Sequence record: MZ501058
From: Escherichia phage DaisyDussoix
Reading direction: 5' to 3' (one strand)
Length of the DNA stretch: 64,000 nucleotides
In this document: positions 30,466 through 46,561 of the stretch, one piece after another
Layout: each line of letters begins with the position of its first letter
Position numbering within the stretch: the stretch's first letter is position 1
The notes under the pieces: generated by a model
The model's input: only the letters and a program-made list of their open reading frames with translations
Told to the model about the DNA's origin: nothing
Databases searched by the model: none
Program-made: the position numbers and the translations under genes

Positions 30466-31003
30466 ACAACCGACACTAGAGAGATTAAAAGAACTTCTAA
30501 ATTATGATCCTGATACCGGAATATTTACTAATAAAATAAGTAGAGGTAAGGGAGGTAAAGCCGGAGCAGTTGCTGGTTATTTAAGAAAAGATGGTTATAT
30601 AACTATAAAAATAGATAAAGTAGATTATCTAGCCCATAGACTGGCATTCCTGTATATGACAGGGAGTATTCCTGACTTAGTAGATCATATAAATCGTATA
30701 CGGTCAGATAATAGATGGAAAAATTTAAGAGAATCTACTAGTCAAATTAATAATAGAAACTGCACTGCCTCTAGCAAATCAGGGTACTTAGGGGTACATT
30801 GGAATAAGCAACTACAAAAGTGGCAAGTACAGATAATAAACTGTGAGGGTAAGAATATTTATGGTGGAATATTCGAATATCTAGACTTAGAGAACGCCGT
30901 ATTAAAAGCAAATATCTTGAGACACGAGTTACATGGTAAAGATGCTGTAGAAGAAATATTTTATAATAACTATTATCCCACATTAGAGGAACTTAATAGA
31001 TGA
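30458..31003 (+). CDS. HNH homing endonuclease (AP2-domain type)
   Basis: 181 aa; YLAHRLAFLYMTG...VDHINRIRSDNRWKNL. Confidence 0.8.
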   Translation: MSKQPTLERLKELLNYDPDTGIFTNKISRGKGGKAGAVAGYLRKDGYITIKIDKVDYLAHRLAFLYMTGSIPDLVDHINRIRSDNRWKNLRESTSQINNRNCTASSKSGYLGVHWNKQLQKWQVQIINCEGKNIYGGIFEYLDLENAVLKANILRHELHGKDAVEEIFYNNYYPTLEELNR

Positions 31004-31476
31004 GTACATTTCATATATACACAGATGGTGCTTGTAAGTCTAATCCAGGTCCAGGTGCTTGGGGTTTTATTGTCTATGATGATAACAACGATCGTTTAGG
31101 TTCTAAATCTGGTTATAATCCTAAAACCACAAATAACGAGATGGAACTCACAGCTATTGTAGAAGCTCTACGTTGGTCCGTTAAAAAAGATAATAGACCA
31201 ATTGCTATCTATACTGACTCTGCTTATTGCAAAAATGGCATGGAAAGTTGGATGTTTTCTTGGCAAAGGAAAGGCTGGAAGAAAGCAGATGGTGAAGTTC
31301 CTCTTAATCTAGAACTTTGGCAGGAAGCATTTAAATTAACACAGCAGTATATCAACTTTCATAATACTAACCCTACCTTTATTAAGGTTAAAGGACATTC
31401 TGGTATTAGTGGTAATGAAGCTGTAGATGCACTATGTAATACAGTTATTACTGAGCAAGAACTTGCTGAGATGTGA
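31000..31476 (+). CDS. rnh: ribonuclease H
   Basis: YTDGACKSNPGPGAWG, ELTAIVEAL, YTDSAY, VKGHSGISGNEAVDALC motifs. Confidence 0.8.
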   Translation: MSTFHIYTDGACKSNPGPGAWGFIVYDDNNDRLGSKSGYNPKTTNNEMELTAIVEALRWSVKKDNRPIAIYTDSAYCKNGMESWMFSWQRKGWKKADGEVPLNLELWQEAFKLTQQYINFHNTNPTFIKVKGHSGISGNEAVDALCNTVITEQELAEM

Positions 31477-31486
31477 TAAATAAATT

Positions 31487-31530
31487 AAAAATTTTCTTGC
31501 TTAAAGCCCCCTAATTTAGTATAATATTCG
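31487..31530 (+). promoter_or_regulatory. T5-type sigma70 promoter
   Basis: AAAAATTTTCTTGCTT-N17-TATAAT. Confidence 0.55.
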
Positions 31531-31552
31531 TATTGAAAGTGAGGAGGGCTTT

Positions 31553-31831
31553 ATGCGAATTTACAACTCAAATTCATTAGGATTTAAACCTTTGAGAAAA
31601 CTCGCACAACCTCCGCGTCAGATCAGAAAGGCAAATATTGGTGAGCCAGAAACTAGGCTTCCACCACCTCCGGAGCAACGTCTAGTTTACCTAGACGAAG
31701 AATTAGCCGAAAGGGAACGCAAAGCTCAAGAAGAAATTGAGCGCAAGAAACTGTGTACTGCTCCAGCGTATAATAAAGGAGCGTATCAATATGTCTCAGA
31801 TGCCGAACAAGCTAAGATGGTTGGTAGATAA
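31553..31831 (+). CDS. hypothetical protein
   Basis: GAGGAGGG RBS; 92 aa. Confidence 0.45.
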   Translation: MRIYNSNSLGFKPLRKLAQPPRQIRKANIGEPETRLPPPPEQRLVYLDEELAERERKAQEEIERKKLCTAPAYNKGAYQYVSDAEQAKMVGR

Positions 31832-31837
31832 TTTTTA

Positions 31838-31880
31838 AAAAATTCATTTGCTAAACGCTTCAAATTCTCGTATAATATAC
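31838..31880 (+). promoter_or_regulatory. T5-type sigma70 promoter
   Basis: AAAAATTCATTTGCTA-N17-TATAAT. Confidence 0.6.
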
Positions 31881-31914
31881 TTCATAAATTGATAAACAAA
31901 AAGGAAAACAAATA

Positions 31915-32430
31915 ATGGCTAAGCAGAAAAACGCAAAAACTCAAGCAGCTCCGGCAGTTAAAACTTTCCCGCAGACCGAGGCTAATCGCAAAGCTCGTCT
32001 GGAACGCCACCTGCGTAAGCATCCTACCGATGCTCAGGCTGCGCAAGCACTGAATAATCCGGCTCCGATTCGTAAGAAGCCTAAAGCTAAAAATGCCACC
32101 CGTAAATCCTACAAAATGGTTATGTATGTAGAAAATTACGGCCACAAATCTGTCCCAGTTTCCATGAGCTTCAACGCTGGGGCTGAATTATTCTCTCGTA
32201 ATGGTATGTCTATGAAAGACTATGAGAAGGCAGTTAACCAGAAGCGTAAACCAACAGCAGATGTATTGCGTGATACTCGTGGACAGTTTGGTTCTGTTAA
32301 GCCAAATATCTTTGGCGTAGAGTATAGTAAAGATAATGTTCGTGCTCTGTGTTACGGTGTAGGCATTAAGTTCACGGGTGATTCTGCTCGTAAATCTGCT
32401 AAACCAGCTCGCAAGCGTAAAGCGAAGTAA
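31915..32430 (+). CDS. hypothetical basic protein
   Basis: 171 aa, Lys/Arg-rich termini. Confidence 0.5.
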   Translation: MAKQKNAKTQAAPAVKTFPQTEANRKARLERHLRKHPTDAQAAQALNNPAPIRKKPKAKNATRKSYKMVMYVENYGHKSVPVSMSFNAGAELFSRNGMSMKDYEKAVNQKRKPTADVLRDTRGQFGSVKPNIFGVEYSKDNVRALCYGVGIKFTGDSARKSAKPARKRKAK

Positions 32431-32437
32431 TAGATAA

Positions 32438-32456
32438 ATAGGGGCAGAAGCCCCTA
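32438..32456 (+). other. stable GC hairpin (GGGGC-AGAA-GCCCC), weak terminator or processing site
   Basis: hairpin without clear U-tract. Confidence 0.35.
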
Positions 32457-32493
32457 CAATCTACTAATTCTCTAACTAATCAAGGATATTTTT

Positions 32494-32709
32494 ATGTTCT
32501 CTAAGAAACCACGTTCCGTTACTGAAATCGTTGCTTCCTTTACCACTATCACTGATGAGCTTCAAGCTCGTATTGAGGCTGATCAAAAAATTGCTGCGGA
32601 TATTCAGAAACAGCAGGAAGAACTCGCTTTAAAGTTGGCTGAAACCAACAAGAGCGAAAAATCTGCCCAAACTATTATGGAAAATATCCTTAAACTGCTG
32701 GGCAAGTGA
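32494..32709 (+). CDS. hypothetical small protein
   Basis: ORF track 71 aa. Confidence 0.45.
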   Translation: MFSKKPRSVTEIVASFTTITDELQARIEADQKIAADIQKQQEELALKLAETNKSEKSAQTIMENILKLLGK

Positions 32710-32717
32710 TTTAAATC

Positions 32718-32742
32718 AGGGGGCGAAAGCCCCTCTTATTTG
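32718..32742 (+). terminator. intrinsic terminator-like hairpin (GNRA loop)
   Basis: GGGGC-GAAA-GCCCC + UCUUAUUU. Confidence 0.45.
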
Positions 32743-32750
32743 GAGAAACT

Positions 32751-32987
32751 ATGCGTAATTTTGTAGCAAAGAATGATTTTAACCGTGCTAGCACCCATAA
32801 GTCAGCTAGGGATTATACACGACTTTCTAGTCATGAAGTAATGGATACCTGTTATGAAGAGCTGGAAGGTAGCTGGAATGACTGGCCCGACTTCTCTATG
32901 GAAGAGAACTGGGATGTCAGTGAGGATATGCTTCCTGGTTTTAAAGACCCCAAGAAGTGGGAGTCTATTAAAGAGACAGCTCTTTAA
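32751..32987 (+). CDS. hypothetical small protein
   Basis: ORF track 78 aa. Confidence 0.45.
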   Translation: MRNFVAKNDFNRASTHKSARDYTRLSSHEVMDTCYEELEGSWNDWPDFSMEENWDVSEDMLPGFKDPKKWESIKETAL

Positions 32988-33015
32988 TAGTTTTCTACAC
33001 AATAAAGGATAAGTT

Positions 33016-33717
33016 ATGAAAGTAAAACCATTTGGTATGCTAGATATTGAATCTCTAGGAACTCCAGGAGATTGTGGTACTACTCATATCGCAATGCCTT
33101 CTTTCGCTTTTGTGGCTATGCATGGGATTGATAAAGACCCTGACTTAGTATTTGCTACTTTGGATGTGCAGGATCAGCTTAATTCTGGTGCCAAAGTTAC
33201 AGCATCTACTCTAGCATTCTGGATGGATCAAGCTAAAAATAGCCCGTCTGCTATCCACATTATGGAAGCCATGAAGGAACGTAATCCAAAACTGATTGCC
33301 TTCCAAAATGGTAAACATCATTGCACTAATAAATTAGGCTCAAACTATGCTGCCTTCTCTATGTCTCAAAATATTATGGAGTTGGCTCTAGGTGAAAATG
33401 CTTTGTATTATGGCAATGGCCCAGAGTTTGATATGACTATCTACTCTGCAAACACGTTCCATGCTGGAACCAATGAAGAGGTAGTTCCGTGGAAATTCTG
33501 GAATTTGGGCAATGTTCGATCTCTTCGTAATCTCTGGATGCAAGCTGGATACAGTTATAAGGCTCTAGAGACCGAAGGTATTAGCTGGGCAATAGCTAAA
33601 ATGGAGAAGATGGACACTATTCGTTATGGGATCTATCCGGTTAAGCATGATCCTGCATTTGATGCCTTAGTTGAAAGCTATTGTGTTGCAGCTATGATCG
33701 AAAAAATGAAAATTTGA
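33016..33717 (+). CDS. DEDD-type 3'-5' exonuclease-like protein (T4 DexA-like, tentative)
   Basis: N-terminal LDIESLG (DxE) and C-terminal KHDPAFDA (H..D) signatures. Confidence 0.45.
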   Translation: MKVKPFGMLDIESLGTPGDCGTTHIAMPSFAFVAMHGIDKDPDLVFATLDVQDQLNSGAKVTASTLAFWMDQAKNSPSAIHIMEAMKERNPKLIAFQNGKHHCTNKLGSNYAAFSMSQNIMELALGENALYYGNGPEFDMTIYSANTFHAGTNEEVVPWKFWNLGNVRSLRNLWMQAGYSYKALETEGISWAIAKMEKMDTIRYGIYPVKHDPAFDALVESYCVAAMIEKMKI

Positions 33718-33752
33718 TTTGCTTCCGGCCCCAAAATTCTGTATAATATATT
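33709..33752 (+). promoter_or_regulatory. T5-type sigma70 promoter
   Basis: AAAATTTGATTTGCTT-N17-TATAAT. Confidence 0.55.
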
Positions 33753-33787
33753 CATAAATTTGAGAAAACAATAAAAGGAAAACATAT

Positions 33788-33970
33788 ATGCCAGTATCTA
33801 AAAATGTTCGTAAAAATGGTAAGAAAGCTACTCGTAATCTGGGTATCCGTCGTATGGCTGAACGTCAATCAGGTATCCAGAAAATCTTTGATCTGCTAAA
33901 TCGTGCTAATCCTAAAATTGATAACAGTAATGATACTGTTCTACGCACTCTGCTGGCAATTGGTCTGTAA
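33788..33970 (+). CDS. hypothetical small basic protein
   Basis: AAAAGGAAAA RBS; 60 aa. Confidence 0.4.
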   Translation: MPVSKNVRKNGKKATRNLGIRRMAERQSGIQKIFDLLNRANPKIDNSNDTVLRTLLAIGL

Positions 33971-34023
33971 TAGACCAACTTTAAACAAATTCAAATCTCA
34001 AACTTCATATAAGGAAGCAAATA

Positions 34024-34662
34024 ATGACTACTCGTATTTCTAAAACTCGCGCTCTGGCAACTATCAAATCTCTGGAAGCTAAAATCCGTAAAGCTACTGA
34101 ACAGCAGCTTCTGATCGCTGTTGGTGAAGGTAAGGATAAAAACCAAGTTGTAGTTGGCGCTGCAATCGAAGTAGCTGATCTGTCTACTCGTATTAAGACT
34201 GATTTCCAGTCTCTGCTGGATATGATGTCCCAGCGTGATCGTATCAAAGCTGCTCTGATTAAAAGCAATGCGGAAACAATCGTTGAGATTGGCTCTCGTA
34301 AGATGACTGTTGCGGAAGCAATTGAAGCTAAGCGTTCTATGGAACTTAAAGCCCAACTACTGGCTAACATGCGTAAGCAGTTCCATGCCGCTACGGTTAA
34401 GTTTAATACGCAGAAAGCACAGTTTGATGCTAAATATGAGCGTTTGCAGGATAGCATGGCTACCCGCGATAAGAAAACTTCCGAAGATGAAGTTAAAATG
34501 CAGCTCAACCTGCTGGAACTCAAGAATACTCCATTCTTGATTGATCCGCTGGAACTGGAAAAGCTGATTAAGCAGCATGACGAGGAATATCAGGACTTTG
34601 CAACAAATGTTGACTTTGTTCTGTCCGAGTCTAACGCTTCTACCTTCATTGAAGTAGAGTAA
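34024..34662 (+). CDS. hypothetical coiled-coil protein
   Basis: 212 aa; AAGGAAG RBS; overlapping minus-strand ORFs judged spurious. Confidence 0.5.
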   Translation: MTTRISKTRALATIKSLEAKIRKATEQQLLIAVGEGKDKNQVVVGAAIEVADLSTRIKTDFQSLLDMMSQRDRIKAALIKSNAETIVEIGSRKMTVAEAIEAKRSMELKAQLLANMRKQFHAATVKFNTQKAQFDAKYERLQDSMATRDKKTSEDEVKMQLNLLELKNTPFLIDPLELEKLIKQHDEEYQDFATNVDFVLSESNASTFIEVE

Positions 34663-35035
34663 TAATTTAAAAGCTAGTAAATCGGTAGACGAAAGCCCAA
34701 GCATCTTACCTCGCAGCAGCGGTTGAAATACGAGGTTAAATAAGACCGCTGACCATACTATAAAGTATAATCTATTGGAGATTATGTTTATTACATCAGA
34801 CATTTAATCTGACACGTAAAAACAAAAGGTCGTTGGTAGTACCAACACAACTTCAAAGATCAACGCTCAAGTATGAAAGCTGAAAAGTTAAAAGCACTCA
34901 AACTTCTAACCTTCTAAAGCTAAAAGATGCAAAGTATTCGTTGATGATTCAAACCCTAGATCAAAGGTACATGGCTCATAAGATATGGCCTGTGGCGCCT
35001 CTAGGCTGTTTATCGGTTTACTAGTCTCTCAATTT

Positions 35036-35078
35036 AAAAATGTATTTGCTAATTAGTTTAGTTTTCTATATAATATAT
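35036..35078 (+). promoter_or_regulatory. T5-type sigma70 promoter
   Basis: AAAAATGTATTTGCTA-N17-TATAAT. Confidence 0.55.
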
Positions 35079-35104
35079 TTTTAAATTGATGAGACGAGGC
35101 TATT

Positions 35105-35422
35105 ATGATTTTTCATATTCTTATTGATGATGTTCGTGTCCTGCATGGGATGGATATTATCATTCGAACCCCCGAAGCCGCTATTGAGTTTCTGAATACA
35201 ACCGATACCACCGGACATTTCGTTTATATGGATAACGATCTGGCTGTAGATGGTATGGAAGGTTATCAAATTCTTCGATTACTCCTAGAATTTGGTCAGA
35301 GACCCAAGAAAGTGGTACTAGTAACCTCGAACCCAGTAGCTAAAGAGACCATGCGTAATGATCTCCTAGACGAAGGGTATCAAGAAAGCCCTAATCGTAT
35401 TGAGTACGATTGGCCGGAGTAA
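35105..35422 (+). CDS. receiver (REC)-like domain protein (tentative)
   Basis: HILIDDV ... MDNDL ... VVLVTSNP pattern reminiscent of CheY-like fold. Confidence 0.35.
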   Translation: MIFHILIDDVRVLHGMDIIIRTPEAAIEFLNTTDTTGHFVYMDNDLAVDGMEGYQILRLLLEFGQRPKKVVLVTSNPVAKETMRNDLLDEGYQESPNRIEYDWPE

Positions 35423-35877
35423 ATAAAATGAAGGCAGCTTTGCTTTTAATAGCTGCCCTAACCTATAGCTTCAATAGTCATGCGACCTACGACTCAAAGC
35501 AGATTGATTGCATTGCAAAAAATATCTACTTCGAAGCACGAGGTGAGGGCACTAAAGGAATGATCGCAGTTGCACAGGTTACTAAAAACCGTGTTAACTC
35601 TGGTACTTTTCCTGATTCTTACTGTAAAGTAGTATATCAGTCTAACCAGTTCTCTTGGGTGGCCAAGAGACCAAAAGTTGATAAAACCGATGAGGCTTGG
35701 CAAGTTGCTAAGAATTTAGCTAGAGTGATATACTACGTTGATTTACCACAAGATCCAACACATGGAGCGTTATACTTCCATAGTGGTAAAGATAAACCTT
35801 ACTGGACAAAGAAGTTTAAGAAAACAACGAAGATTCAAGGCCATACGTTCTACAAGCCTGTGGTTAAGAAAACTTAA
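35410..35877 (+). CDS. secreted SleB-like cell-wall hydrolase
   Basis: signal peptide MKAALLLIAALTYSFNSHA; NIYFEARGE...AVAQVTKNR SleB-family motifs. Confidence 0.55.
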   Translation: MAGVNKMKAALLLIAALTYSFNSHATYDSKQIDCIAKNIYFEARGEGTKGMIAVAQVTKNRVNSGTFPDSYCKVVYQSNQFSWVAKRPKVDKTDEAWQVAKNLARVIYYVDLPQDPTHGALYFHSGKDKPYWTKKFKKTTKIQGHTFYKPVVKKT

Positions 35878-35918
35878 AAATTCGATTGCTTAAAGCCTTA
35901 AATTTCTGTATAATACTT
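35876..35918 (+). promoter_or_regulatory. T5-type sigma70 promoter
   Basis: AAAAATTCGATTGCTT-N17-TATAAT. Confidence 0.55.
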
Positions 35919-35945
35919 TCATAAATTAATGAGAGGAAGCGAAAT

Positions 35946-36116
35946 ATGAAATCAGTTGTAATTATTGGTGTTAATACTCGTGGTATCCGTACTACGAAAA
36001 CAGTTAAAACTACTAACGTTGCTGAAATTACTACAAACCCTAAGAAGTTTGATTTCGCCAAAGTCTCAGCAGTTATGACAGAGCAATCTTTTAACCAAGC
36101 ACTGGGGATGAAATAA
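35946..36116 (+). CDS. hypothetical small protein (56 aa; below ORF-track cutoff)
   Basis: GAGAGGAAG RBS, ATG 35946, stop overlaps next start (TAATG). Confidence 0.35.
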   Translation: MKSVVIIGVNTRGIRTTKTVKTTNVAEITTNPKKFDFAKVSAVMTEQSFNQALGMK

Positions 36117-36565
36117 TGGAAGAGAATATTCTAGATGTTTTGCGTAGGGCTTTGCAGGAATCTAAGGTTGATGGTTCTGATAAAGAAGTAGCTAAAAGCT
36201 ACCAGACCATAATCGGAGATCTTCAGCGTGTTGATAAAGACTTCATTACTTCTGAACAGTTTGTATCTTATCTAAAAGCTCAACTGAAAAGCATTAATCA
36301 GACGAAAGCTAAACTTCACGGTCAAGACATTGATAATTATAGCTTGCAGTCTGCTCAGTATGAATATATACTGAACAAATGGTTACAACAGTATCTGCCG
36401 CCTCAGCTTTCTGATTCTGAGATTCGCAAATACTTTGCAGAATTAGTTAAGTTGAACCCTGGGATTACGAAAGGTATGCTGATGAAAGCGATTAAGGAAG
36501 AATTCCCTGGTCGTTATGATGGTGGTATTGCTGCTCAAGTTGCTGGCGAATTCAATAAAAATTGA
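36116..36565 (+). CDS. GatB/YqeY-like domain protein
   Basis: C-terminal WLQQYLPPQLSDSEIRKYFAELVKLNPGITKGMLMKAIKEEFPGRYDG matches YqeY/GatB pattern. Confidence 0.5.
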   Translation: MEENILDVLRRALQESKVDGSDKEVAKSYQTIIGDLQRVDKDFITSEQFVSYLKAQLKSINQTKAKLHGQDIDNYSLQSAQYEYILNKWLQQYLPPQLSDSEIRKYFAELVKLNPGITKGMLMKAIKEEFPGRYDGGIAAQVAGEFNKN

Positions 36566-36600
36566 TTTGCTAAACGCTTCAAAATTCTGTATAATAGATT
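36557..36600 (+). promoter_or_regulatory. T5-type sigma70 promoter driving ORF-free RNA region
   Basis: AAAAATTGATTTGCTA-N17-TATAAT. Confidence 0.55.
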
Positions 36601-37454
36601 CATAAATTAGAGAACAGCGAGCCGATTACGCTGAGTGAGTTTAGTGATTCCTAATAGGATAGCTATCCCACTGAATAGAGTCGGTGAGTTGGAGACTAGT
36701 AAGTACTCTTAGAGAGGCTACGAGCTAACGCTTATTGCTATTGATAGGGAACTGAAAATCTGCGGAAAACTCGGGAGCTGTCCCGAAATCTCGTAAACTC
36801 TTCTCTAGTTTATGTTAGTGGGGTGTCGAACTGACTTATGTGATAACACTGCCGTCCTAGTATAAACGGTAATATCAAACCGTAACTGGTGGAAGATGCA
36901 GGTTCGAATCCTGCGGTCGGAAAGAATCAGATAACTCGGGCTTATACCGGATAAGCATTCGCTGCTGTAGTACATACTATGACGGTTCAGGAGGTACGCC
37001 GCCTGATCAGTATTAGGTTAGAATCGAAACAGCTAAACCACGAGGAAACCTGACGGCCTCAATCAAACTCGGAACTCGGGATCACTGCCTAGTGTGTGCC
37101 CCGTTTAACCTGAGACTAGGCATCCAGCTTCGCATCGAAAATCGGAGGTGCGATTCTAACAGACCGCGTGAATATGAGAGTGGGAAATGCTGACATGAGA
37201 GATGTCACTAATGGTGCCCAATAGTACAGGTAATTCGCGATAATTCCTGTTGAGCGGCAGCAGTAGGCTGGGAGTCATGACCTAAGCCTAACCGAGTTCT
37301 TCACATACGGAGAACATAACCACAAAGTCACCCTGACTTAAACTGGAGGATATTATCTGACGGAAGGGCTGCAGAGCTTAATCTGAGGGGGCTGACCCTA
37401 CCTACCGTCGGGTATCTTTAAGAGCTTTTATAAGAGTTCTTAAAAATACCTAAA
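36601..37454 (+). ncRNA. candidate structured ncRNA / degenerate tRNA region (no ORF of 60 aa or more on either strand)
   Basis: 850 bp ORF-free directly after a strong promoter; tRNA T-arm copy at 36898-36914 without matching acceptor stem. Confidence 0.3.
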
Positions 37455-37529
37455 CGGGGTGTAGTCTAAGGGATAGGCAGGAGTCTTCTAAATTCCTTTA
37501 TGCAGGTTCGAATCCTGTCACCTCGGCCA
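37455..37529 (+). tRNA. tRNA-Arg (anticodon UCU)
   Basis: manual cloverleaf: acceptor CGGGGUG/CACCUCG, anticodon loop CUUCUAA, T-loop UUCGAAU, CCA encoded. Confidence 0.6.
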
Positions 37530-37555
37530 ATTTTATTAACTGCTAGGAAAATAAA

Positions 37556-37756
37556 GTGAAAACACGATATATAGTAAAAGTAGTAGGTGAACATTCACAA
37601 GTAAATACCACCGATGTTACAGCGCTAGCATTTGAAGTAGTCTCCGGTATAGTCATATTTCATAACGGAGATATCAAAGCTCCTGAATTTGCTGTGGATG
37701 CTAGCCTGTTTATTTCTGCAACTAAAGTAACTGTAGTAGCTAACTCTTCTAAATAA
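37556..37756 (+). CDS. hypothetical beta-rich small protein (possible NfeD-like partner of SPFH protein)
   Basis: GTG start with AGGAAA RBS; 66 aa immediately upstream of SPFH gene. Confidence 0.4.
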   Translation: MKTRYIVKVVGEHSQVNTTDVTALAFEVVSGIVIFHNGDIKAPEFAVDASLFISATKVTVVANSSK

Positions 37757-37767
37757 TAAGGAAATAT

Positions 37768-38712
37768 ATGTTTACTAAAAATATGAAAGAACTGACTTCT
37801 GAGCAAAAAGTAATTCGCACTATTAAACGTTGGGGTATTGGTGCTGTAGTTGGTTTAGCAGGTTTAATCCTAGCTTTTAATTCATATACTATTGTTTCTG
37901 ATGGTACGGTTAAAACCCAAACATTTCTTGGTAAAGTAGATCCTAATCCAGTATTACCTGGTTTCCATCTTGTAAACCCATTTGCATCTTTCGATACTTT
38001 TAGTACAAAAGATATTGCTGTAAAATTAGATAAACTTCAGGTTCCTAGCCAGGATAAGTTTAAATCCACTGTTGACCTGACTGTTATGTTGCAGTTTGAC
38101 GGTTCTAAGGCACCGATCAACCGTATTAATGCAGGTACTCAGGATCAGGCTCTAGATAAGTACGTAACTGAAAAATTACTGTCTACTATTCGTGAGTTTG
38201 GTAAGTCTGTACCTAAAGCACAAGATTTATTTGATGCTAAAATTCAGGCTCAATTGCAAACTGCAATTCAACAGGAAGTTGAAGAGTATGCACGCCCTTA
38301 TGGTTACACAGTTAAGCAAGTGTTCCTTCAGGATATTACGTTGCCACCGGTAATCATGGAACAGGTACAAAATACCAAAGTTCGTGAAGAACAGGTTAAT
38401 GCTGCGAAAGCTGAGTTGGCTCGTGTTGAACAAGAAGCACAGCAGAAGGTTAAACAAGCAGAAGCAGATCGTGAAGCTCGTAACAACCAAGCTATTGCAA
38501 ACGAACGTGATGCAGATGCTAAACTGTACGCAGCTAAGAAAGAAGCCGAAGCTAACGCCGCGCTGCAACGTACTATTACTCCTGAGATGATTCGCTGGAA
38601 ACAACTAGAAGTTGAAATGATTCGTGCTCAGAAATATCAAGGTGGTGTACCGCAAACAGTGGTTGGCACTGGTTATGATGGCCAGATGATTATGGATATG
38701 CGTAACAAGTAA
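37768..38712 (+). CDS. SPFH/band-7 (stomatin/prohibitin-like) membrane protein
   Basis: N-terminal TM (WGIGAVVGLAGLILAF), band-7 core, long Ala/Glu/Gln coiled-coil tail. Confidence 0.6.
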   Translation: MFTKNMKELTSEQKVIRTIKRWGIGAVVGLAGLILAFNSYTIVSDGTVKTQTFLGKVDPNPVLPGFHLVNPFASFDTFSTKDIAVKLDKLQVPSQDKFKSTVDLTVMLQFDGSKAPINRINAGTQDQALDKYVTEKLLSTIREFGKSVPKAQDLFDAKIQAQLQTAIQQEVEEYARPYGYTVKQVFLQDITLPPVIMEQVQNTKVREEQVNAAKAELARVEQEAQQKVKQAEADREARNNQAIANERDADAKLYAAKKEAEANAALQRTITPEMIRWKQLEVEMIRAQKYQGGVPQTVVGTGYDGQMIMDMRNK

Positions 38713-39437: not shown

Positions 39438-39444
39438 AATTCTG

Positions 39445-39521
39445 GTTCTCAAGCTCATATGGTATGAGCACCCAGCTCATAACTGGAAGGTACGTAGGTT
39501 CGAATCCTCGGGGAGCCACCA
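39445..39521 (+). tRNA. tRNA with CAU anticodon (Met or Ile-lysidine)
   Basis: acceptor GGUUCUC/GGGAGCC, anticodon loop CUCAUAA; T-stem imperfect. Confidence 0.5.
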
Positions 39522-42635: not shown

Positions 42636-42712
42636 GCGACCGGGGCTGGCTTGGTAATGGTACTCCCCTGTCACGGGAGGGAATGTGGGTTCAAATCCCA
42701 TCGGTCGCGCCA
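42636..42712 (+). tRNA. tRNA-Asp (anticodon GUC)
   Basis: acceptor GCGACCG/CGGUCGC perfect, anticodon stem CUCCC/GGGAG loop CUGUCAC, T-loop UUCAAAU, CCA. Confidence 0.7.
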
Positions 42713-42737
42713 AATTAATTTAGTATGAGAATATACT

Positions 42738-43085
42738 ATGCGTAATGCAAAAGAAGAGCTGTTACTTGCCTTAAAAAATACTAATTCTGAAGTTAAATGT
42801 ATTAAAATAGAATTCGGGTATTATGGGGATAAAAAAGTTTGGGTATTGCCTTTAGGTTACACAGAAGAAGATATTGAGGATTTTCTTAATAACCTAGACT
42901 TTAAATATGACTCTGGATATGGTGGACAATTACTTTATGGTAATGTATGGTTTGCCGATGGAACTTGGTTAGAACGTGGTGAATATGATGGTTCTGAATG
43001 GTGGGAATATAAGGCTACACCAGCAATCCCAGAAGAATGCCGAACAATTAATGGTGAAGTAGATAATACTTTACGGTTAAACTAA
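42738..43085 (+). CDS. hypothetical protein
   Basis: ORF track 115 aa. Confidence 0.45.
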   Translation: MRNAKEELLLALKNTNSEVKCIKIEFGYYGDKKVWVLPLGYTEEDIEDFLNNLDFKYDSGYGGQLLYGNVWFADGTWLERGEYDGSEWWEYKATPAIPEECRTINGEVDNTLRLN

Positions 43086-43089
43086 TAAA

Positions 43090-43460
43090 ATTTCAGTGCA
43101 GAACACGGAGCTAGCAATTAGGAAGTGCTGACTCATGATAAGCTGCCTATGTACTTGCAAAGCGGTCGTGTCCAAGACTCGGACTCTTGCACTGAAAACA
43201 ATCAAACATTCTAGCGTGGTTGATGGGGAAACCAGCTTGGCTAGGGCAGAAGCTCGTTCGATTCGAGTGAAAGAATGGTTCTCGTAAGTCCGCACAAGTG
43301 ATAATAGGTTCGAGTCCTGTCTAGAATGACACTATAAAGTTTACTTATTATGTAGGTTCCGATAGATCGGAGGGTCTATTCTGGCATTTAAGAGAGGTCT
43401 CGCAAACGTCTTTGTCAGCCGTGGGGTTGGTAGCCTCCAGGTGGCCTACACAATAAGTAA
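43090..43460 (+). ncRNA. candidate structured stable RNAs (ORF-free), including a 121-nt tRNA-like element 43208..43328
   Basis: long-range stems UUCAGUGCA/UGCACUGAA (43092-43100 / 43188-43196) and AUUCUAG/CUAGAAU closing a T-arm (AUAGG-UUCGAGU-CCUGU). Confidence 0.35.
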
Positions 43461-43467
43461 ATTTATT

Positions 43468-43510
43468 AAAAATTCATTTGCTATTCTGCTTTATTATCTG
43501 TATAATATAT
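43468..43510 (+). promoter_or_regulatory. T5-type sigma70 promoter
   Basis: AAAAATTCATTTGCTA-N17-TATAAT. Confidence 0.6.
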
Positions 43511-43538
43511 TTTATAAAGTGAAGAGAAGGAAAGCTAA

Positions 43539-44114
43539 ATGGAAGGATTTAAGCCAATACCCGAGTATCCAGAATACTTAGTATCTGAGAAGGGAGAAAT
43601 ATACTCTACTATCAGTAATAAATATCTAAAACCTACTATAAACGGAAAAGGCTATTACCACTTTGCAGTACGTGAAGATACTAATAAGTATAAATGGCTC
43701 CAGCTGCACAGAGTCATATGCAGAGTTTATGGCAATCTCCCCTCTTTAGATAGTGAAATGGAAGTAGATCATAATGATCGTAATAAGCTTAATATACTCC
43801 CTAGTAATTTAGTTGCCAGAGAGAAGAAAGATCATTATGATAAAACTACACTGGAGAGAGGAAAAACTATAGGGGGCACTAGATGTATAGTCTGTAATAA
43901 GAGGATACACTCTGGTCGAGAATACTGTATAAATTGCAGCCCAGTTAAACAGACTAAATCTCCAGAGATTACCGCAGAACAGATAGAATATTGGGTATCA
44001 AAGTATTCCTGGACTAGAGCTGCAAAAGAGTTAAATTTATCTGATAATGGTCTACGAAAACGGTATACTAAATTAACAGGTAAATCCCCAAAAGAAATTA
44101 AAAAATCAGGGTAA
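43539..44114 (+). CDS. HNH homing endonuclease (NUMOD4/HNH + C-terminal HTH type)
   Basis: 191 aa; HRVICRVYG...EVDHNDRNKLNILPSNL; C-terminal RAAKELNLSDNGLRKRY HTH. Confidence 0.75.
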   Translation: MEGFKPIPEYPEYLVSEKGEIYSTISNKYLKPTINGKGYYHFAVREDTNKYKWLQLHRVICRVYGNLPSLDSEMEVDHNDRNKLNILPSNLVAREKKDHYDKTTLERGKTIGGTRCIVCNKRIHSGREYCINCSPVKQTKSPEITAEQIEYWVSKYSWTRAAKELNLSDNGLRKRYTKLTGKSPKEIKKSG

Positions 44115-44184
44115 GGGCGATAAGGTACGCCACCTCGTTTGGGGTGAGGAAATCTTTAGAGTTCGAGTCCTGCCGCACTGACCA
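44107..44184 (+). tRNA. tRNA-like gene, possible Pro (anticodon UGG); acceptor/T-stem imperfect
   Basis: anticodon stem CCUCG/UGAGG loop UUUGGGG, D-stem GGCG/CGCC, T-loop UUCGAGU, CCA; several mismatches. Confidence 0.35.
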
Positions 44185-44190
44185 AACAAC

Positions 44191-45029: not shown

Positions 45030-45252
45030 TGGGGAGAAATCCTCATCATAGTTCACTAAGGTATTAGCTCGACCTAGGACTGGCTGCCAAAAAGCACGAT
45101 CCCTACAATTCGGGAGAAGTTCTAGATTAGTCCACTAGATTCAGCGGCAACTGAATAGTGTATCGGGTTTGCGAGATGACGCAGTTCCTTCCGCTCGAAG
45201 CGAAGGTGCTGTAGTTACGCCGAGCTAATAGCCTTAGTAAACTAAATAATTT
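45030..45252 (+). ncRNA. candidate structured leader / small RNA (ORF-free, hairpin-rich) ahead of tRNA-Ala
   Basis: hairpins GAUGGGG..CCUCAUC, UUCAG..CUGAA, CCUUCCGCUCGAAGCGAAGG. Confidence 0.25.
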
Positions 45253-46195: not shown

Positions 46196-46561
46196 AATCT
46201 TGAAGTATGCCGAAATCGGTAGACGGGGCTGCCTAAAAGGTTTATAGGGAACATCCACTCCCTACAACATACCTCATAAAGCGGCTGAGATAAATGGTCT
46301 ATCTCGTGAAGGTTCAAGTCCTTCTGCTTCTTGATACATCTATGGCTCAAAGTGTAACGGTGCTATTTGATGCTCTTGGTAAGACTTCCCCGACATGCGT
46401 TCGGGAGTAAGCTGCTAAGACTAGAGTAGAAGAGTTTCTGAGAGCCGCCACAATTGAAAATTCGTACTCGTCTTGAGCTGCGCGCAATAGGAGATAACTT
46501 GATTAGTATTCTAGAACATGCTAATTGAGGAAGGTTTCGCTAACCCTGCGAGTTTTCAATT
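46196..46561 (+). ncRNA. candidate structured RNA region (ORF-free) with 18-bp imperfect inverted repeat
   Basis: IR arms 46447-46464 (GCCACAATTGAAAATTCG) and 46549-46566 (CGAGTTTTCAATTGTGGC); T-arm-like hairpins without acceptor stems. Confidence 0.3.

What the first reader, a model, noticed from the sequence alone, without database searches (positions are those of the whole stretch)
43090..43460. Two tRNA-like but oversized RNA elements in an ORF-free gap (about 107 nt and 121 nt)
43208-43328 has a perfect 7-bp acceptor-like closing stem (AUUCUAG/CUAGAAU) and a canonical T-arm (AUAGG-UUCGAGU-CCUGU) at the 3' side, but the body is about 121 nt with a second internal T-arm-like hairpin (CUCG-UUCGAUU-CGAG). 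It is too long for a tRNA and too short for a group I intron-containing tRNA. Just upstream, 43092-43100 and 43188-43196 form a 9-bp long-range stem enclosing about 105 nt. These could be stable small RNAs (analogous to the unexplained small RNAs in the T4 tRNA region), tRNA-like decoys, or permuted/fused tRNAs.
Basis: partly seen in the sequence, partly recalled or inferred. Interest (0 to 1): 0.65.

Follow-up and report, generated by a model that had tools for sequence, protein, structure and literature searches.

The report
Known T5 tRNA-like stable RNAs
The ORF-free gap in this T5-like phage holds three small structured RNA genes: two are already annotated in phage T5 as stable RNAs of unknown function, one of them (RNA2) being a transfer-RNA look-alike that cannot decode and is conserved across many large phages, and the third is an unannotated, highly conserved 107-base element.

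Summary
The window is a T5-like phage. Its tRNA cluster is on the + strand.

**121-nt element (43208-43328).** This is the ortholog of T5 "RNA2", annotated in GenBank as a "tRNA-like stable RNA with unknown functions".
- It belongs to a 120-122-nt family found in T5-like, Acinetobacter T4-like and jumbo phages, always in or next to tRNA arrays.
- All five helices are supported by compensatory changes.
- The scaffold is a class-I tRNA. The anticodon loop is replaced by a highly conserved insert of about 52 nt that carries a second T-loop.
- It has no anticodon loop, no encoded CCA and no Rfam match.

**Upstream element (43091-43197).**
- Its 10-bp terminal stem is real.
- No model finds it tRNA-like.
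- It shows no covariation, and no homolog below 93% identity.
- It is a discrete cassette and is as constrained as second codon positions.

T5 "RNAIV" lies at 43350-43452 and is supported by covariation.

**Function.** Unknown for all three elements. The region is dispensable for T5 in the laboratory.

**Best reading.** RNA2 is a non-decoding tRNA mimic, excised by the tRNA-processing machinery, whose conserved insert binds a partner.

**Novelty.** Already known as an entity; the family-level picture appears to be new.

The parts
43091..43197 (+). Element A: an unannotated 107-nt cassette closed by a 10-bp terminal stem (43091-43100 / 43188-43197). Its internal fold is undetermined.
   Evidence: The stem is visible in the sequence and in the folds. 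It is a discrete insertion/deletion unit between 'CCA-AAU' and 'AAAC' plus RNA2: absent in L019, present after tRNA-Lys in L009 and after a tRNA-like RNA in L074. Diversity is 0.011, against 0.118 at ORF third positions. There are 218 phage records, all at 93% identity or more. Zero compensatory pairs were found. T5, phage 5 and BF23 records carry no annotation here.
43207..43331 (+). RNA2: ortholog of T5 rna2 (125 nt as annotated; core 43208-43328), a tRNA-scaffold non-coding RNA.
   Evidence: Mapped from NC_005859 rna2 through alignment A1. It scores 135.7 bits against covariance model R1. Covariation is shown.
43208..43214 (+). RNA2 acceptor stem, 5' strand. It pairs with 43321-43327. G43328 sits at the discriminator position and is followed by ACA, not CCA.
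   Evidence: All 7 pairs show changes on both sides across the family. All 23 tRNAs of the window encode CCA; RNA2 has G-ACA.
43217..43234 (+). RNA2 D-arm: UGGUU, loop GAUGGGGA, AACCA. The loop contains the GG typical of D-loops.
   Evidence: All 5 pairs show compensatory changes.
43236..43298 (+). RNA2 anticodon-arm replacement. Stem Pa is 43236-43239 / 43295-43298 and stem Pb (GGGC/GUCC) is 43244-43247 / 43288-43291. Together they enclose the conserved insert.
   Evidence: All 4 Pa pairs covary. Pb is nearly invariant, and its last pair switches between C-G and U-A.
43252..43268 (+). Inner T-arm-like hairpin T': 5-bp stem and 7-nt loop UUCGAUU, which matches the T-loop consensus UUCRANY.
   Evidence: 4 of 5 pairs show compensatory changes. 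The loop is nearly invariant in all members.
43269..43287 (+). Conserved single-stranded segment J2 (GAAAGAAUGGUUCUCGUAA). AUGG and CGUAA are invariant across the family. With the following UCCGCA it forms the family signature.
   Evidence: Invariant columns are shown. Two candidate local pairings were tested and were inconclusive.
43304..43320 (+). RNA2 canonical T-arm: AUAGG, loop UUCGAGU, CCUGU.
   Evidence: 3 of 5 pairs show compensatory changes; the two G-C pairs nearest the loop are invariant.
43337..43464 (+). RNAIV with its extended closing helix. The T5-annotated RNAIV maps to 43350-43452. The outer stem is 43337-43349 / 43452-43464 and the inner stem is 43352-43360 / 43440-43449. Three hairpins lie at 43361-43380, 43381-43418 and 43423-43437.
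   Evidence: Mapped from T5 rnaIV. RNAalifold predicts 49 pairs, 10 of them with compensatory changes, using homologs down to 74.6% identity. The fold z-score is -3.8.
43478..43506 (+). Sigma-70-type promoter (TTGCTA, 17-nt spacer, TATAAT) corresponding to T5 promoter P13a. It marks the end of the upstream tRNA/RNA operon.
   Evidence: The consensus scan scores it 10 of 12. T5 annotates P13a immediately after rnaIV.

Best explanation
The gap 43086-43465 is the 3' end of a tRNA operon of a T5-like phage. It encodes three consecutive small structured RNAs.

**RNA2 (43207-43331).** RNA2 is a non-decoding tRNA mimic.
- Shown: it has a covariation-supported acceptor stem, D-arm, 5-nt variable loop and T-arm of a class-I tRNA.
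- Shown: the 7-nt anticodon loop is replaced by a highly conserved module of about 52 nt. The module contains a second T-loop hairpin and an invariant ...AUGG...CGUAA.UCCGCA strand.
- Shown: the module has the arm order of a circularly permuted tRNA body without an acceptor stem.
- Inferred: RNA2 is excised from the polycistronic transcript by the tRNA-processing machinery, with RNase P cutting at 43207/43208 and 3' trimming following. The inference rests on RNA2 sitting in tRNA arrays at tRNA-like spacing.
- Inferred: its tRNA fold makes it stable.
- Inferred: it cannot be used in translation, because it has no anticodon loop, no conserved identity elements, and no encoded CCA in most members.
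- Inferred: it acts through the conserved insert plus the adjacent T-arm as a binding platform or decoy for a tRNA-recognising factor. These are the only parts retained in the acceptor-less T4-like versions. The factor could be a host tRNA-directed nuclease or other defence component, or a tRNA-processing or tRNA-modifying enzyme.

**Element A (43091-43197).** A is probably a fourth T5-type small RNA closed by a long terminal stem, alongside RNAI, RNAIII and RNAIV. Only its terminal stem, its cassette boundaries and its strong sequence constraint are shown.

**RNAIV (43350-43452).** RNAIV is a four-way-junction RNA. Its roughly 22-bp closing helix ends the operon.

**Confidence.** The stated figure is for the whole statement, including the inferred mode of action. 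That RNA2 is a real, conserved, non-decoding tRNA mimic stands at about 0.9. The binding-platform or decoy mechanism stands at about 0.35-0.4.
For: Identity and position:
- The window is 94.7% identical to T5 over the region. GenBank annotates rna2 and rnaIV here, and alignment A1 transfers the coordinates.

RNA2 family:
- Members are 120-122 nt. They occur in Tequintavirus, Epseptimavirus, Klebsiella, Serratia and Providencia T5-like phages, and in metagenomic phage contigs of up to 363 kb.
- An acceptor-less form occurs in Acinetobacter phages 133 and Acj9 and their relatives.

Structure:
- 95.6% and 92.1% of cells pair in the two alignments. 24 of 32 pairs show changes on both sides, none of 500 shuffles reaches the observed values, and slid controls pair at 32-47%.
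- The scaffold is tRNA-like. The RNA2 model matches genuine tRNAs end to end at 20-38 bits, while family members score 45-139 bits.
- Relaxed ARAGORN fits RNA2 as a tRNA with a 48-nt insert in the anticodon loop.

Context:
- RNA2 lies 6-9 nt from flanking tRNAs in Epseptimavirus. It is adjacent to tRNAs in every distant locus examined.
- All 23 tRNAs of the window encode CCA, but RNA2 has G-ACA.
- The family looks phage-specific. The strict core pattern gives one hit in 185,579 species genomes, on a 167-kb contig that looks like a phage. There is no blastn match in 5,426 E. coli genomes.

Dispensability:
- The viable mutant T5Mos carries the deletion 30661-38625, which covers A, RNA2 and RNAIV (PMC11464382). 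This fits an accessory or conditional role.

Permuted arm order:
- The comparison is with YrlA as described in bioRxiv 10.1101/312249.
Against: - There is no experimental or computational evidence for any binding partner. No protein gene is consistently linked to RNA2 in the loci I looked at.
- Processing by RNase P, stability and the exact ends are inferred. They rest on GenBank notes whose experimental basis I could not read.
- The fold of the insert beyond T' and Pb is unresolved.
- The covariation alignments were fitted to the model, which inflates pairing somewhat. The compensatory acceptor stems are, however, obvious in unaligned sequences.
- Some members do encode CCA: Klebsiella phage K7_rec11 and Providencia PSTCR5. 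Aminoacylation or CCA-dependent functions therefore cannot be excluded.
- For A there is no covariation at all. Several natural substitutions break the predicted inner hairpins. Its low diversity could reflect recent horizontal spread of a cassette rather than selection.
Confidence: 0.55

Rival explanations
1. RNA2 is a genuine tRNA gene interrupted by an intron or insertion. After removal of the insert it would decode, for example as the 'tRNA-Arg(CCG) with 48-nt intron' proposed by relaxed ARAGORN.
For: The acceptor, D, variable and T regions are a perfect class-I scaffold. The RNA2 model matches real tRNAs. ARAGORN at -ps90 with introns allowed reports tRNA-Arg(ccg) i(34,48) at 43208-43328.
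Against: - ARAGORN at default settings and Rfam tRNA at E<=10 report nothing.
- The insert of 48-52 nt is far too short for a group I intron, the only intron class known in bacterial and phage tRNAs (established knowledge).
- The insert, not the scaffold, is the most conserved part. That is the opposite of what is expected for an intron.
- If the Pb-closed module were excised, the residual loop (for example GCUA+GCA) would lack U33 and a purine at position 37 in nearly all members.
- The acceptor stem and discriminator are not conserved, so no common identity set exists.
- CCA is absent, although all 23 tRNAs in the window have it.
Confidence: 0.04
2. RNA2, and perhaps A, have no function as free RNAs. 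They are pseudo-tRNA relics, or act only in cis as processing or 'punctuation' structures that direct RNase P/RNase E cleavage and protect neighbouring transcripts.
For: - They sit inside a polycistronic tRNA operon, between an ORF and a promoter.
- The region is dispensable for T5 in the laboratory.
- The window also contains clearly degenerate tRNAs, such as tRNA-Pro at about 44107-44187.
Against: - A relic would not keep five helices through compensatory changes across T5-like, T4-like and jumbo phages.
- A relic would not keep an invariant unpaired strand of more than 20 nt.
- A mere processing signal needs only the acceptor/T minihelix, yet the T4-like versions have lost the acceptor and kept the insert and T-arm.
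- A is about ten-fold less diverse than neighbouring synonymous-like sites.
Confidence: 0.12
3. The conserved insert of RNA2 is a ligand- or RNA-binding aptamer carried on a tRNA chassis. It might be a sponge for a small molecule or immune signal. Alternatively it might bind the 3'-NCCA ends of tRNAs through the invariant UGGU, as in the T-box antiterminator bulge or the RNase P L15 loop.
For: - Invariant nucleotides are concentrated in junction strands of a small multi-helix module, as in riboswitch aptamers.
- UGGU is complementary to ACCA. This is read directly from the sequence and is only an analogy from established knowledge of T-box and RNase P.
- In the T4-like versions a UGG-containing segment upstream of the core is complementary to the CCA end of the preceding tRNA.
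Against: - No Rfam riboswitch or T-box similarity is found at E<=10.
- No covariation can be obtained for invariant nucleotides.
- The GG can equally be explained as the D-loop-like partner of the inner T-loop.
- The hypothesis is entirely untested.
Confidence: 0.1
4. Element A is not an RNA gene. Its terminal inverted repeat is incidental, or belongs to a DNA-level element such as a recombination or endonuclease target or the remnant of a mobile cassette. Its low diversity would then reflect recent horizontal spread.
For: - A 9-10-bp inverted repeat at this spacing is common by chance.
- The fold z-score is -1.1.
- There are no compensatory changes.
- Substitutions break the predicted inner hairpins.
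- No homolog below 93% identity exists.
- The T5 annotators, who listed eight stable RNAs, did not annotate it.
- Presence or absence as a cassette among relatives is typical of this recombining region.
Against: - Its boundaries coincide exactly with the terminal stem.
- Its size and architecture (107 nt, roughly 10-bp closing stem, about three inner hairpins) match the annotated T5 RNAI (107 nt), RNAIII (106 nt) and RNAIV (103 nt).
- It sits at tRNA-like spacing after 'CCA-AAU' in L009 and L074.
- Its diversity of 0.011 equals that of second codon positions, while the 10-nt spacer immediately after it is at 0.092.
- It is single-copy in the window.
Confidence: 0.35

Closest known systems
Bacteriophage T5 rna2 (T5s06; also annotated in BF23 and Salmonella phage 5): 'tRNA-like stable RNA with unknown functions'
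   Same: It is the ortholog. It holds the same position after the T5.067-like ORF and before rnaIV and promoter P13a, at 95% identity, with the same 125-nt extent.
   Different: Nothing substantive differs. The window copy has six point differences from T5 over the 125 nt (95.2% identity): three on one side of a stem, including the T-stem G-C to A-U/U-G changes, and three in unpaired positions. What is added here is the family-wide structure and distribution. Neither is recorded in the GenBank notes or in Rfam 15.
Bacteriophage T5 rnaIV, rnaI and rnaIII: 'stable RNA with unknown functions'
   Same: RNAIV is orthologous to 43350-43452. RNAI and RNAIII have the same size class (103-107 nt) and the same design, a closing stem enclosing hairpins, as element A.
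   Different: Element A has no sequence similarity to any of them and is not annotated in any T5-group record I inspected.
Bacteriophage T4 species 1 and 2 RNAs (rnaC, rnaD)
   Same: They are small stable RNAs of unknown function, encoded at the end of a phage tRNA cluster and co-transcribed with tRNAs. rnaC has a 3' T-arm-like hairpin.
   Different: There is no homology. The RNA2 covariance model gives only tRNA hits in the T4 locus among matches listed to E of about 0.013. The signature AUGG..CGUAA..CCGCA is absent.
YrlA (bacterial Y RNA-like tRNA mimics; Rfam YrlA)
   Same: It is a non-decoding tRNA mimic with T- and D-loop tertiary contacts and no anticodon loop. YrlA is a circularly permuted tRNA with the order AC stem, T-arm, acceptor hairpin, D-arm (bioRxiv 10.1101/312249). 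The inner module of RNA2 has the order stem, 4-5-nt linker, T-arm, GG strand, stem.
   Different: RNA2 gives no Rfam YrlA hit at E<=10. Its inner module has no acceptor hairpin. No Ro60-binding stem or rsr linkage is seen. RNA2 additionally carries a complete outer tRNA scaffold with free ends.
tmRNA tRNA-like domain, viral 3' tRNA-like structures and mascRNA
   Same: These are tRNA mimics that use the acceptor/T-arm and are handled by tRNA-processing enzymes.
   Different: ARAGORN in tmRNA mode and Rfam find nothing. RNA2 has no tag reading frame, no pseudoknots and no conserved CCA or identity elements.
T5 rna1 ('tRNA-like stable RNA', 144 nt; window 46199-46343)
   Same: It follows the same design principle. 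It is a tRNA scaffold, here class II and Leu-like with a long variable arm, whose anticodon loop is replaced by an insertion of about 45 nt.
   Different: It has a different scaffold and an unrelated insert sequence. It is not detected by the RNA2 model.

Membership tests
T5 RNA2 family (tRNA-scaffold RNA with conserved second T-loop insert) | Sequence orthology and synteny with the annotated T5 rna2. | tested here: met
   It is 95.2% identical over 125 nt to NC_005859 rna2 and sits in the same position between the T5.067 ortholog and rnaIV/P13a.
T5 RNA2 family (tRNA-scaffold RNA with conserved second T-loop insert) | Five helices (acceptor, D, Pa/Pb, T', T) plus the invariant GGG / UUCRAUU / AUGG / CGUAA / CCGC signature, in 120-122 nt. 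| tested here: met
   The window copy scores 135.7 bits on model R1. All helices are supported by compensatory changes.
Canonical tRNA (Rfam RF00005 / ARAGORN) | Cloverleaf with acceptor, D-arm and T-arm. | tested here: met
   All three are present and covary. The RNA2 model cross-matches genuine tRNAs end to end at 20-38 bits.
Canonical tRNA (Rfam RF00005 / ARAGORN) | 5-bp anticodon stem with a 7-nt anticodon loop (U33, purine 37), and a score above the family threshold. | tested here: not met
   There is no ARAGORN call at default settings and no RF00005 hit even at E<=10 in 42900-43700. The loop position holds a structured insert of about 52 nt.
Canonical tRNA (Rfam RF00005 / ARAGORN) | An encoded 3' CCA, which is the rule for tRNAs of this phage. 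| tested here: not met
   All 23 tRNAs of the window have N73-CCA. RNA2 has G-ACA and element A has A-ACA. A few distant RNA2 homologs do have CCA.
Intron-containing tRNA | An intron of a known class (group I in bacteria and phages), with exons that restore a canonical anticodon loop. | tested here: not met
   The insert is 48-52 nt and no group I intron hit is found in Rfam. The residual loop lacks U33/R37. ARAGORN gives an intron call only at relaxed -ps90.
tmRNA | A tRNA-like domain plus a tag-peptide reading frame and pseudoknots. | tested here: not met
   ARAGORN in tmRNA mode and Rfam find nothing.
YrlA / Y RNA | A match to the Rfam YrlA or Y RNA models. | tested here: not met
   No hit at E<=10.
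YrlA / Y RNA | A Ro60-binding stem and genomic linkage to rsr. | not tested
   The annotation tables retrieved for related loci list no Ro60/rsr gene, but the neighbouring ORFs were never scanned against protein families. Binding is not testable with these tools.
T4 rnaC / rnaD | Sequence or structure homology to T4 species 1 or 2 RNA. | tested here: not met
   Model R1 gives only tRNA hits in T4 locus L058 among the listed matches. The signature motifs are absent from the rnaC and rnaD sequences.
T5 RNAIV | Orthology to the annotated T5 rnaIV and a conserved four-way-junction fold. | tested here: met
   43350-43452 maps to T5 rnaIV at about 97% identity. 49 pairs are predicted, 10 of them compensatory.
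Stable small RNA (experimentally discrete transcript) | A discrete transcript with defined ends in infected cells. | not testable with these tools
   Only the GenBank notes ('stable RNA') are available for RNA2 and RNAIV. Nothing is available for element A.

The most novel reading that the evidence does not exclude
RNA2 would define a widespread and so far uncatalogued class of phage 'double-elbow' tRNA mimics. Each is a full tRNA scaffold whose anticodon loop carries a second, permuted mini-tRNA body. In this reading it acts as a dedicated RNA counter-measure within the tRNA arms race: an uncleavable decoy or inhibitor of host tRNA-directed defence nucleases, or a binder of tRNA 3'-CCA ends. 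Element A would be a further, unannotated, functional small RNA of T5-like phages.
Probability: 0.2. Interest if true: 0.8.

Novelty: already known. Interest (0 to 1): 0.4.

Why it matters
T5-type phages carry near-complete tRNA sets. These are now known to neutralise tRNA-cleaving defences such as PARIS, Retron-Eco7/Septu and OLD (PMC11464382; bioRxiv 10.64898/2026.07.10.737580). The same operons also encode several stable RNAs whose function has never been explained.

This analysis shows three things about RNA2:
- It is conserved with compensatory changes from T5-like phages to T4-like and jumbo phages.
- It is always embedded in tRNA arrays.
- It has an invariant insert that is not in Rfam.

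That turns an old annotation note into a defined RNA family with testable residues. If the family proves to be an RNA-based anti-defence or tRNA-metabolism factor, it would add a new class to the phage counter-defence repertoire. If it does not, the result simply clarifies that the first-stage finding is a rediscovery of annotated T5 RNAs.

Tried and rejected
**RNA2 identity**
- Rfam 15 was searched at gathering score over the whole window, and at E<=10 over 42900-43700. Only a chance 'pan' match turned up. Rfam searches on nine distant loci found only tRNAs.
- ARAGORN found nothing in default, intron and tmRNA modes. Relaxed thresholds gave forced or contradictory calls.
- Homology to T4 rnaC/rnaD was rejected.
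- A host origin was rejected: there is no blastn match in E. coli genomes, and there is one phage-like hit in species genomes.
- The intron reading was rejected on loop composition and on the conservation pattern.

**RNA2 structure and context**
- Two candidate helices inside the insert were tested: J1 with UUCU, and a local AGAA/UUCU hairpin. Neither could be distinguished by covariation.
- ORFs next to distant homologs were listed for a linked protein. Nothing stood out and no family search was run on them.

**Element A**
- No distant homolog was found.
- It has no similarity to other window regions or to other T5 stable RNAs.
- No covariation was found.
- The 'repeat c' feature of AY587007 lies elsewhere.

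**Literature**
- Searches for any functional study of T5 RNA2, RNAIV or phage tRNA-like non-coding RNAs found none.
- They did recover the dispensability of the region and the YrlA analogy.

**Technical note**
- The first MAFFT alignment of distant RNA2 homologs misregistered the Klebsiella sequences. It was replaced by model-based alignments.
Full report
**1. What the window is**

The region 42700-43600 is 94-97% identical to many T5-like phages (Tequintavirus), including T5 itself at 94.7%. ARAGORN finds 23 tRNAs on the + strand between 37455 and 48811, and none between 42713 and 44190. Rfam adds only tRNA hits.

The interval 43086-43538 has no ORF longer than 72 aa. It lies between a 115-aa ORF, the ortholog of T5.067, and an HNH endonuclease gene.

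**2. Mapping to existing annotation**

The GenBank records of T5 (NC_005859/AY543070, AY692264), Salmonella phage 5 (AJ604531) and BF23 annotate two features here:
- rna2: 'tRNA-like stable RNA with unknown functions', 125 nt.
- rnaIV: 'stable RNA with unknown functions', 103 nt.

An indel-free alignment (A1) transfers these to window 43207-43331 (RNA2) and 43350-43452 (RNAIV).

T5 lists eight such RNAs in its tRNA region, and all have homologs in the window.

**3. Checking the observation**

For RNA2 the single-sequence fold energy is unremarkable (z of -0.2 to -0.7). The case therefore rests on comparative data (section 4).

For the upstream element (element A):
- The stem is 10 perfect pairs (43091-43100 / 43188-43197).
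- Such repeats are common. Shuffles give about 44 per 64 kb and the real window has 80.
- The fold z-score is -1.1.

**4. RNA2 is a conserved family**

*Finding homologs.* Distant blastn and pattern scans found homologs as follows.
- Epseptimavirus (89% identity).
- Klebsiella, Serratia and Providencia T5-like phages (75-82% identity over the core).
- Acinetobacter T4-like phages 133 and Acj9.
- Metagenomic phage contigs, including two of 344 and 363 kb.

*Length and acceptor stems.* Full-length members are 120-122 nt. Their acceptor stems are completely different yet complementary, for example AUUCUAG/CUAGAAU, UACGGGG/UCCCGUA, GGGUACU/GGUACCC, GACUUUG/CAAAGUC, UGGUUAG/CUAACCA and ACUGACC/GGUCAGU.

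*Covariance model.* Model R1 scores family members at 45-139 bits. It also matches genuine tRNAs end to end at 20-38 bits. This shows objectively that the scaffold is a tRNA scaffold.

*Covariation.*

| Measure | 28 sequences | 16 diverse sequences |
|---|---|---|
| Cells that form a pair | 95.6% | 92.1% |
| Pairs with changes on both sides | 24 of 32 | 24 of 32 |
| Covariation score | 0.514 | 0.744 |
| Highest score among slid controls | 0.084 | 0.120 |
| Shuffles reaching the observed value | 0 of 500 | 0 of 500 |

Pairs with compensatory changes, by helix:

| Helix | Pairs with compensatory changes |
|---|---|
| Acceptor | 7 of 7 |
| D | 5 of 5 |
| Pa | 4 of 4 |
| T' (inner) | 4 of 5 |
| T | 3 of 5 |

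These alignments were fitted to the model, which favours pairing. The compensatory stems are nevertheless visible in raw sequences.

**5. Anatomy of RNA2 (window coordinates)**

| Element | Coordinates | Sequence or note |
|---|---|---|
| Acceptor stem | 43208-14 / 43321-27 | AUUCUAG / CUAGAAU |
| Positions 8-9 | 43215-16 | CG |
| D-arm | 43217-34 | loop GAUGGGGA |
| Position 26 | 43235 | G |
| Stem Pa | 43236-39 / 43295-98 | in the place of the anticodon stem |
| Internal loop | 43240-43 and 43292-94 | |
| Stem Pb | 43244-47 / 43288-91 | GGGC / GUCC |
| Linker J1 | 43248-51 | 4 nt |
| Hairpin T' | 43252-68 | 5 bp, loop UUCGAUU (a T-loop) |
| Strand J2 | 43269-87 | GAAAGAAUGGUUCUCGUAA |
| Variable loop | 43299-303 | UGAUA |
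| T-arm | 43304-20 | loop UUCGAGU |
| Discriminator position | 43328 | G, followed by ACA |

Across the whole family the invariant residues are GGG, G-GUUC-A-UCC, AUGG, CGUAA, CCGC and the T-arm GGUUC-A-CC. The insert is thus more conserved than the scaffold.

The inner module has the order stem, short linker, T-arm, GG-containing strand, stem. That is the order of a circularly permuted tRNA body, as described for YrlA (bioRxiv 10.1101/312249), minus the acceptor hairpin. I infer that the J2 GG docks on the T' loop as G18/G19 do on a T-loop. This cannot be tested by covariation because the residues are invariant. Two candidate helices in the insert were inconclusive.

**6. Why RNA2 is not a tRNA**

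- ARAGORN at default settings and Rfam at E<=10 give nothing. Only at a relaxed threshold does ARAGORN force a 'tRNA-Arg(ccg) with 48-nt intron'.
- The insert is too short for a group I intron.
- Excising it would leave a loop without U33/R37.
- The acceptor stem and discriminator vary, so no conserved identity set exists.
- All 23 tRNAs of the window encode N73-CCA, but RNA2 has G-ACA. A few distant members do carry CCA.
- The Acinetobacter T4-like versions lack an acceptor stem altogether. They keep Pa, the insert and the T-arm. This places the function in the insert plus T-arm.

**7. Context of RNA2**

- RNA2 behaves like a tRNA gene in the array. In Epseptimavirus it lies 6-9 nt from tRNA-Lys(CUU) and tRNA-Gly(GCC).
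- In every distant locus examined it abuts tRNAs.
- In T5 it belongs to the operon driven by P14b. That operon ends before promoter P13a, which is found in the window at 43478-43506.
- The family looks phage-specific. A strict core pattern hits one contig among 185,579 species genomes, and E. coli genomes have no similar sequence.
- The viable mutant T5Mos carries the deletion 30661-38625. In reference T5 coordinates this removes A, RNA2 and RNAIV (PMC11464382). The elements are therefore accessory under laboratory conditions.
- I found no paper that assigns a function.

**8. Element A (43091-43197)**

*Against a structured RNA.*
- No tRNA-likeness is detected by any model.
- All 218 homologs are at 93% identity or more.
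- There are zero compensatory pairs.
- Natural substitutions break several predicted inner pairs.

*For a functional unit.*
- It is a clean cassette. L019 reads ...CCA-AAU-AAAC-RNA2. L009 and L074 read ...CCA-AAU-[UUCAGUGCA...UGCACUGAA-AACAAUC]-AAAC-RNA2. The terminal stem therefore coincides with the cassette boundaries.
- Among 13 distinct Tequintavirus sequences it is the most constrained segment in the region:

| Segment | Nucleotide diversity |
|---|---|
| Element A | 0.011 |
| ORF second codon positions | 0.013 |
| RNA2 | 0.022 |
| RNAIV | 0.033 |
| 10-nt spacer after A | 0.092 |
| ORF third codon positions | 0.118 |

- Its size and layout match T5 RNAI (107 nt), RNAIII (106 nt) and RNAIV (103 nt).

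I therefore regard A as a probable additional small RNA gene, at about 0.55-0.65. Recent cassette spread or a DNA-level role are the alternatives.

**9. RNAIV**

Homologs down to 74.6% identity give a consensus of 49 pairs, 10 of them with compensatory changes. The fold has these parts:
- A closing helix of about 22 bp, made of 43337-49 / 43452-64 plus 43352-60 / 43440-49.
- Three hairpins.
- A fold z-score of -3.8.

The annotated ends (43350 and 43452) fall inside the long helix. This is compatible with double-strand-specific processing, but that is an inference only.

**10. Mechanism, and how sure I am**

Shown:
- RNA2 is a conserved, structured, phage-specific, tRNA-scaffold RNA that lacks the decoding parts.

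Inferred:
- It is excised by RNase P and 3' processing.
- It is stable.
- It acts through the invariant insert plus T-arm as a binding platform or decoy for a tRNA-recognising factor. Host tRNA-directed defences are the most topical candidates, because T5 tRNAs are already known to counter them.

Confidence:
- That RNA2 is a real non-decoding tRNA mimic: about 0.9.
- In the decoy or binding-platform mechanism specifically: about 0.35-0.4.

Rivals are listed separately: an intron-bearing tRNA, an inert relic or processing signal, and an aptamer or CCA-end binder.

**11. Novelty and verdict**

The finding is a correct reading of the sequence. However, it rediscovers features annotated in T5-group GenBank records since 2004, namely RNA2 and RNAIV. 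Its second element is not tRNA-like.

What appears not to be catalogued:
- The RNA2 family as a whole. It has no Rfam family and I found no functional paper.
- Its reach into T4-like and jumbo phages.
- Element A.

I rate the finding as 'already known', with moderate residual interest because the function of these RNAs is a long-standing open question that the conserved insert now makes testable.

Noticed in passing
window 46199-46343: This is the homolog of T5 rna1 (83% identity). It is a class-II (Leu-like) tRNA scaffold with a long variable arm, and its anticodon loop is replaced by an insertion of about 45 nt. That is the same design principle as RNA2, with an unrelated insert. The fold z-score is -2.35.
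   Followed up: partly
window 46344-46450 and 46455-46560: These are the homologs of T5 RNAI (107 nt, ends in GCCA) and RNAIII (106 nt, 12-bp closing stem, z -2.98). Both are stable RNAs of unknown function lying directly upstream of tRNA-His.
   Followed up: partly
window 45062-45233: This is the homolog of T5 rna2H (172 nt, 97% identity), annotated as a 'stable RNA with unknown functions'. It has no Rfam match and is not detected by the RNA2 model.
   Followed up: no
window 36796-37454: This region is a patchy homolog (79-88%) of the 719-nt T5 'RNAX', upstream of tRNA-Arg. It contains a borderline Rfam tRNA hit at 36851-36922 (29.3 bits) that ARAGORN does not call, possibly a degenerate tRNA.
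   Followed up: no
window 39444-39518: Rfam reports a tRNA hit (38.2 bits) that ARAGORN misses. It lies at the position of T5 tRNA-Ile2(CAU), next to tRNA-Ser(GCU).
   Followed up: no
window 44107-44187: The tRNA-Pro(UGG) found here in T5 and phage 5 is degenerate in this phage. The 5' half and the anticodon arm are retained, but the T-stem and the acceptor 3' strand no longer pair. Neither ARAGORN nor Rfam calls it. It overlaps the 3' end of the HNH endonuclease ORF.
   Followed up: partly
window 43539-44114: A 191-aa HNH endonuclease ORF (like hegB/F-TflIII of Salmonella phage 5) follows promoter P13a, where T5 itself has a 52-aa ORF. This is an example of homing-endonuclease cassette exchange in the tRNA region.
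   Followed up: no
L074 513-598 (phage TrudiGerster); L002 about 2330-2500 (Salmonella phage 5): This is another unannotated odd tRNA-like RNA. It has acceptor GGGGUCU/AGACUCC followed by A-CCA, a normal D-arm, an extended anticodon arm and an 11-nt T-loop UAACACGUAGU. It lies just upstream of element A in TrudiGerster.
   Followed up: no
L073 391-483 (Providencia phage PSTCR5): A tRNA-like RNA of about 93 nt is not annotated in the record. It has acceptor AGAAGAA/UUCUUCU followed by G-CCA, and T-arm GUGGG-UUCGACU-CCCAC. It lies two elements upstream of the RNA2 homolog.
   Followed up: no
L005 1455-1490 (phage 133), L072 565-590 (Acj9), L059 around 7030-7053 (minus strand): In the acceptor-less T4-like RNA2 versions, a UGG-containing segment just upstream of the core is complementary to the 3' ...CCA end of the preceding tRNA. 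Examples are CUCCAU/AUGGAG in Acj9 and CACCA/UGGUG in L059.
   Followed up: no
L006 1098-1182 (Serratia phage Slocum): An unannotated tRNA-like sequence lies directly upstream of the RNA2 homolog. It has acceptor GCACCGU/AUGGUGC followed by A-CCA, and a non-canonical T-loop AUCGUUA. ARAGORN does not call it.
   Followed up: no
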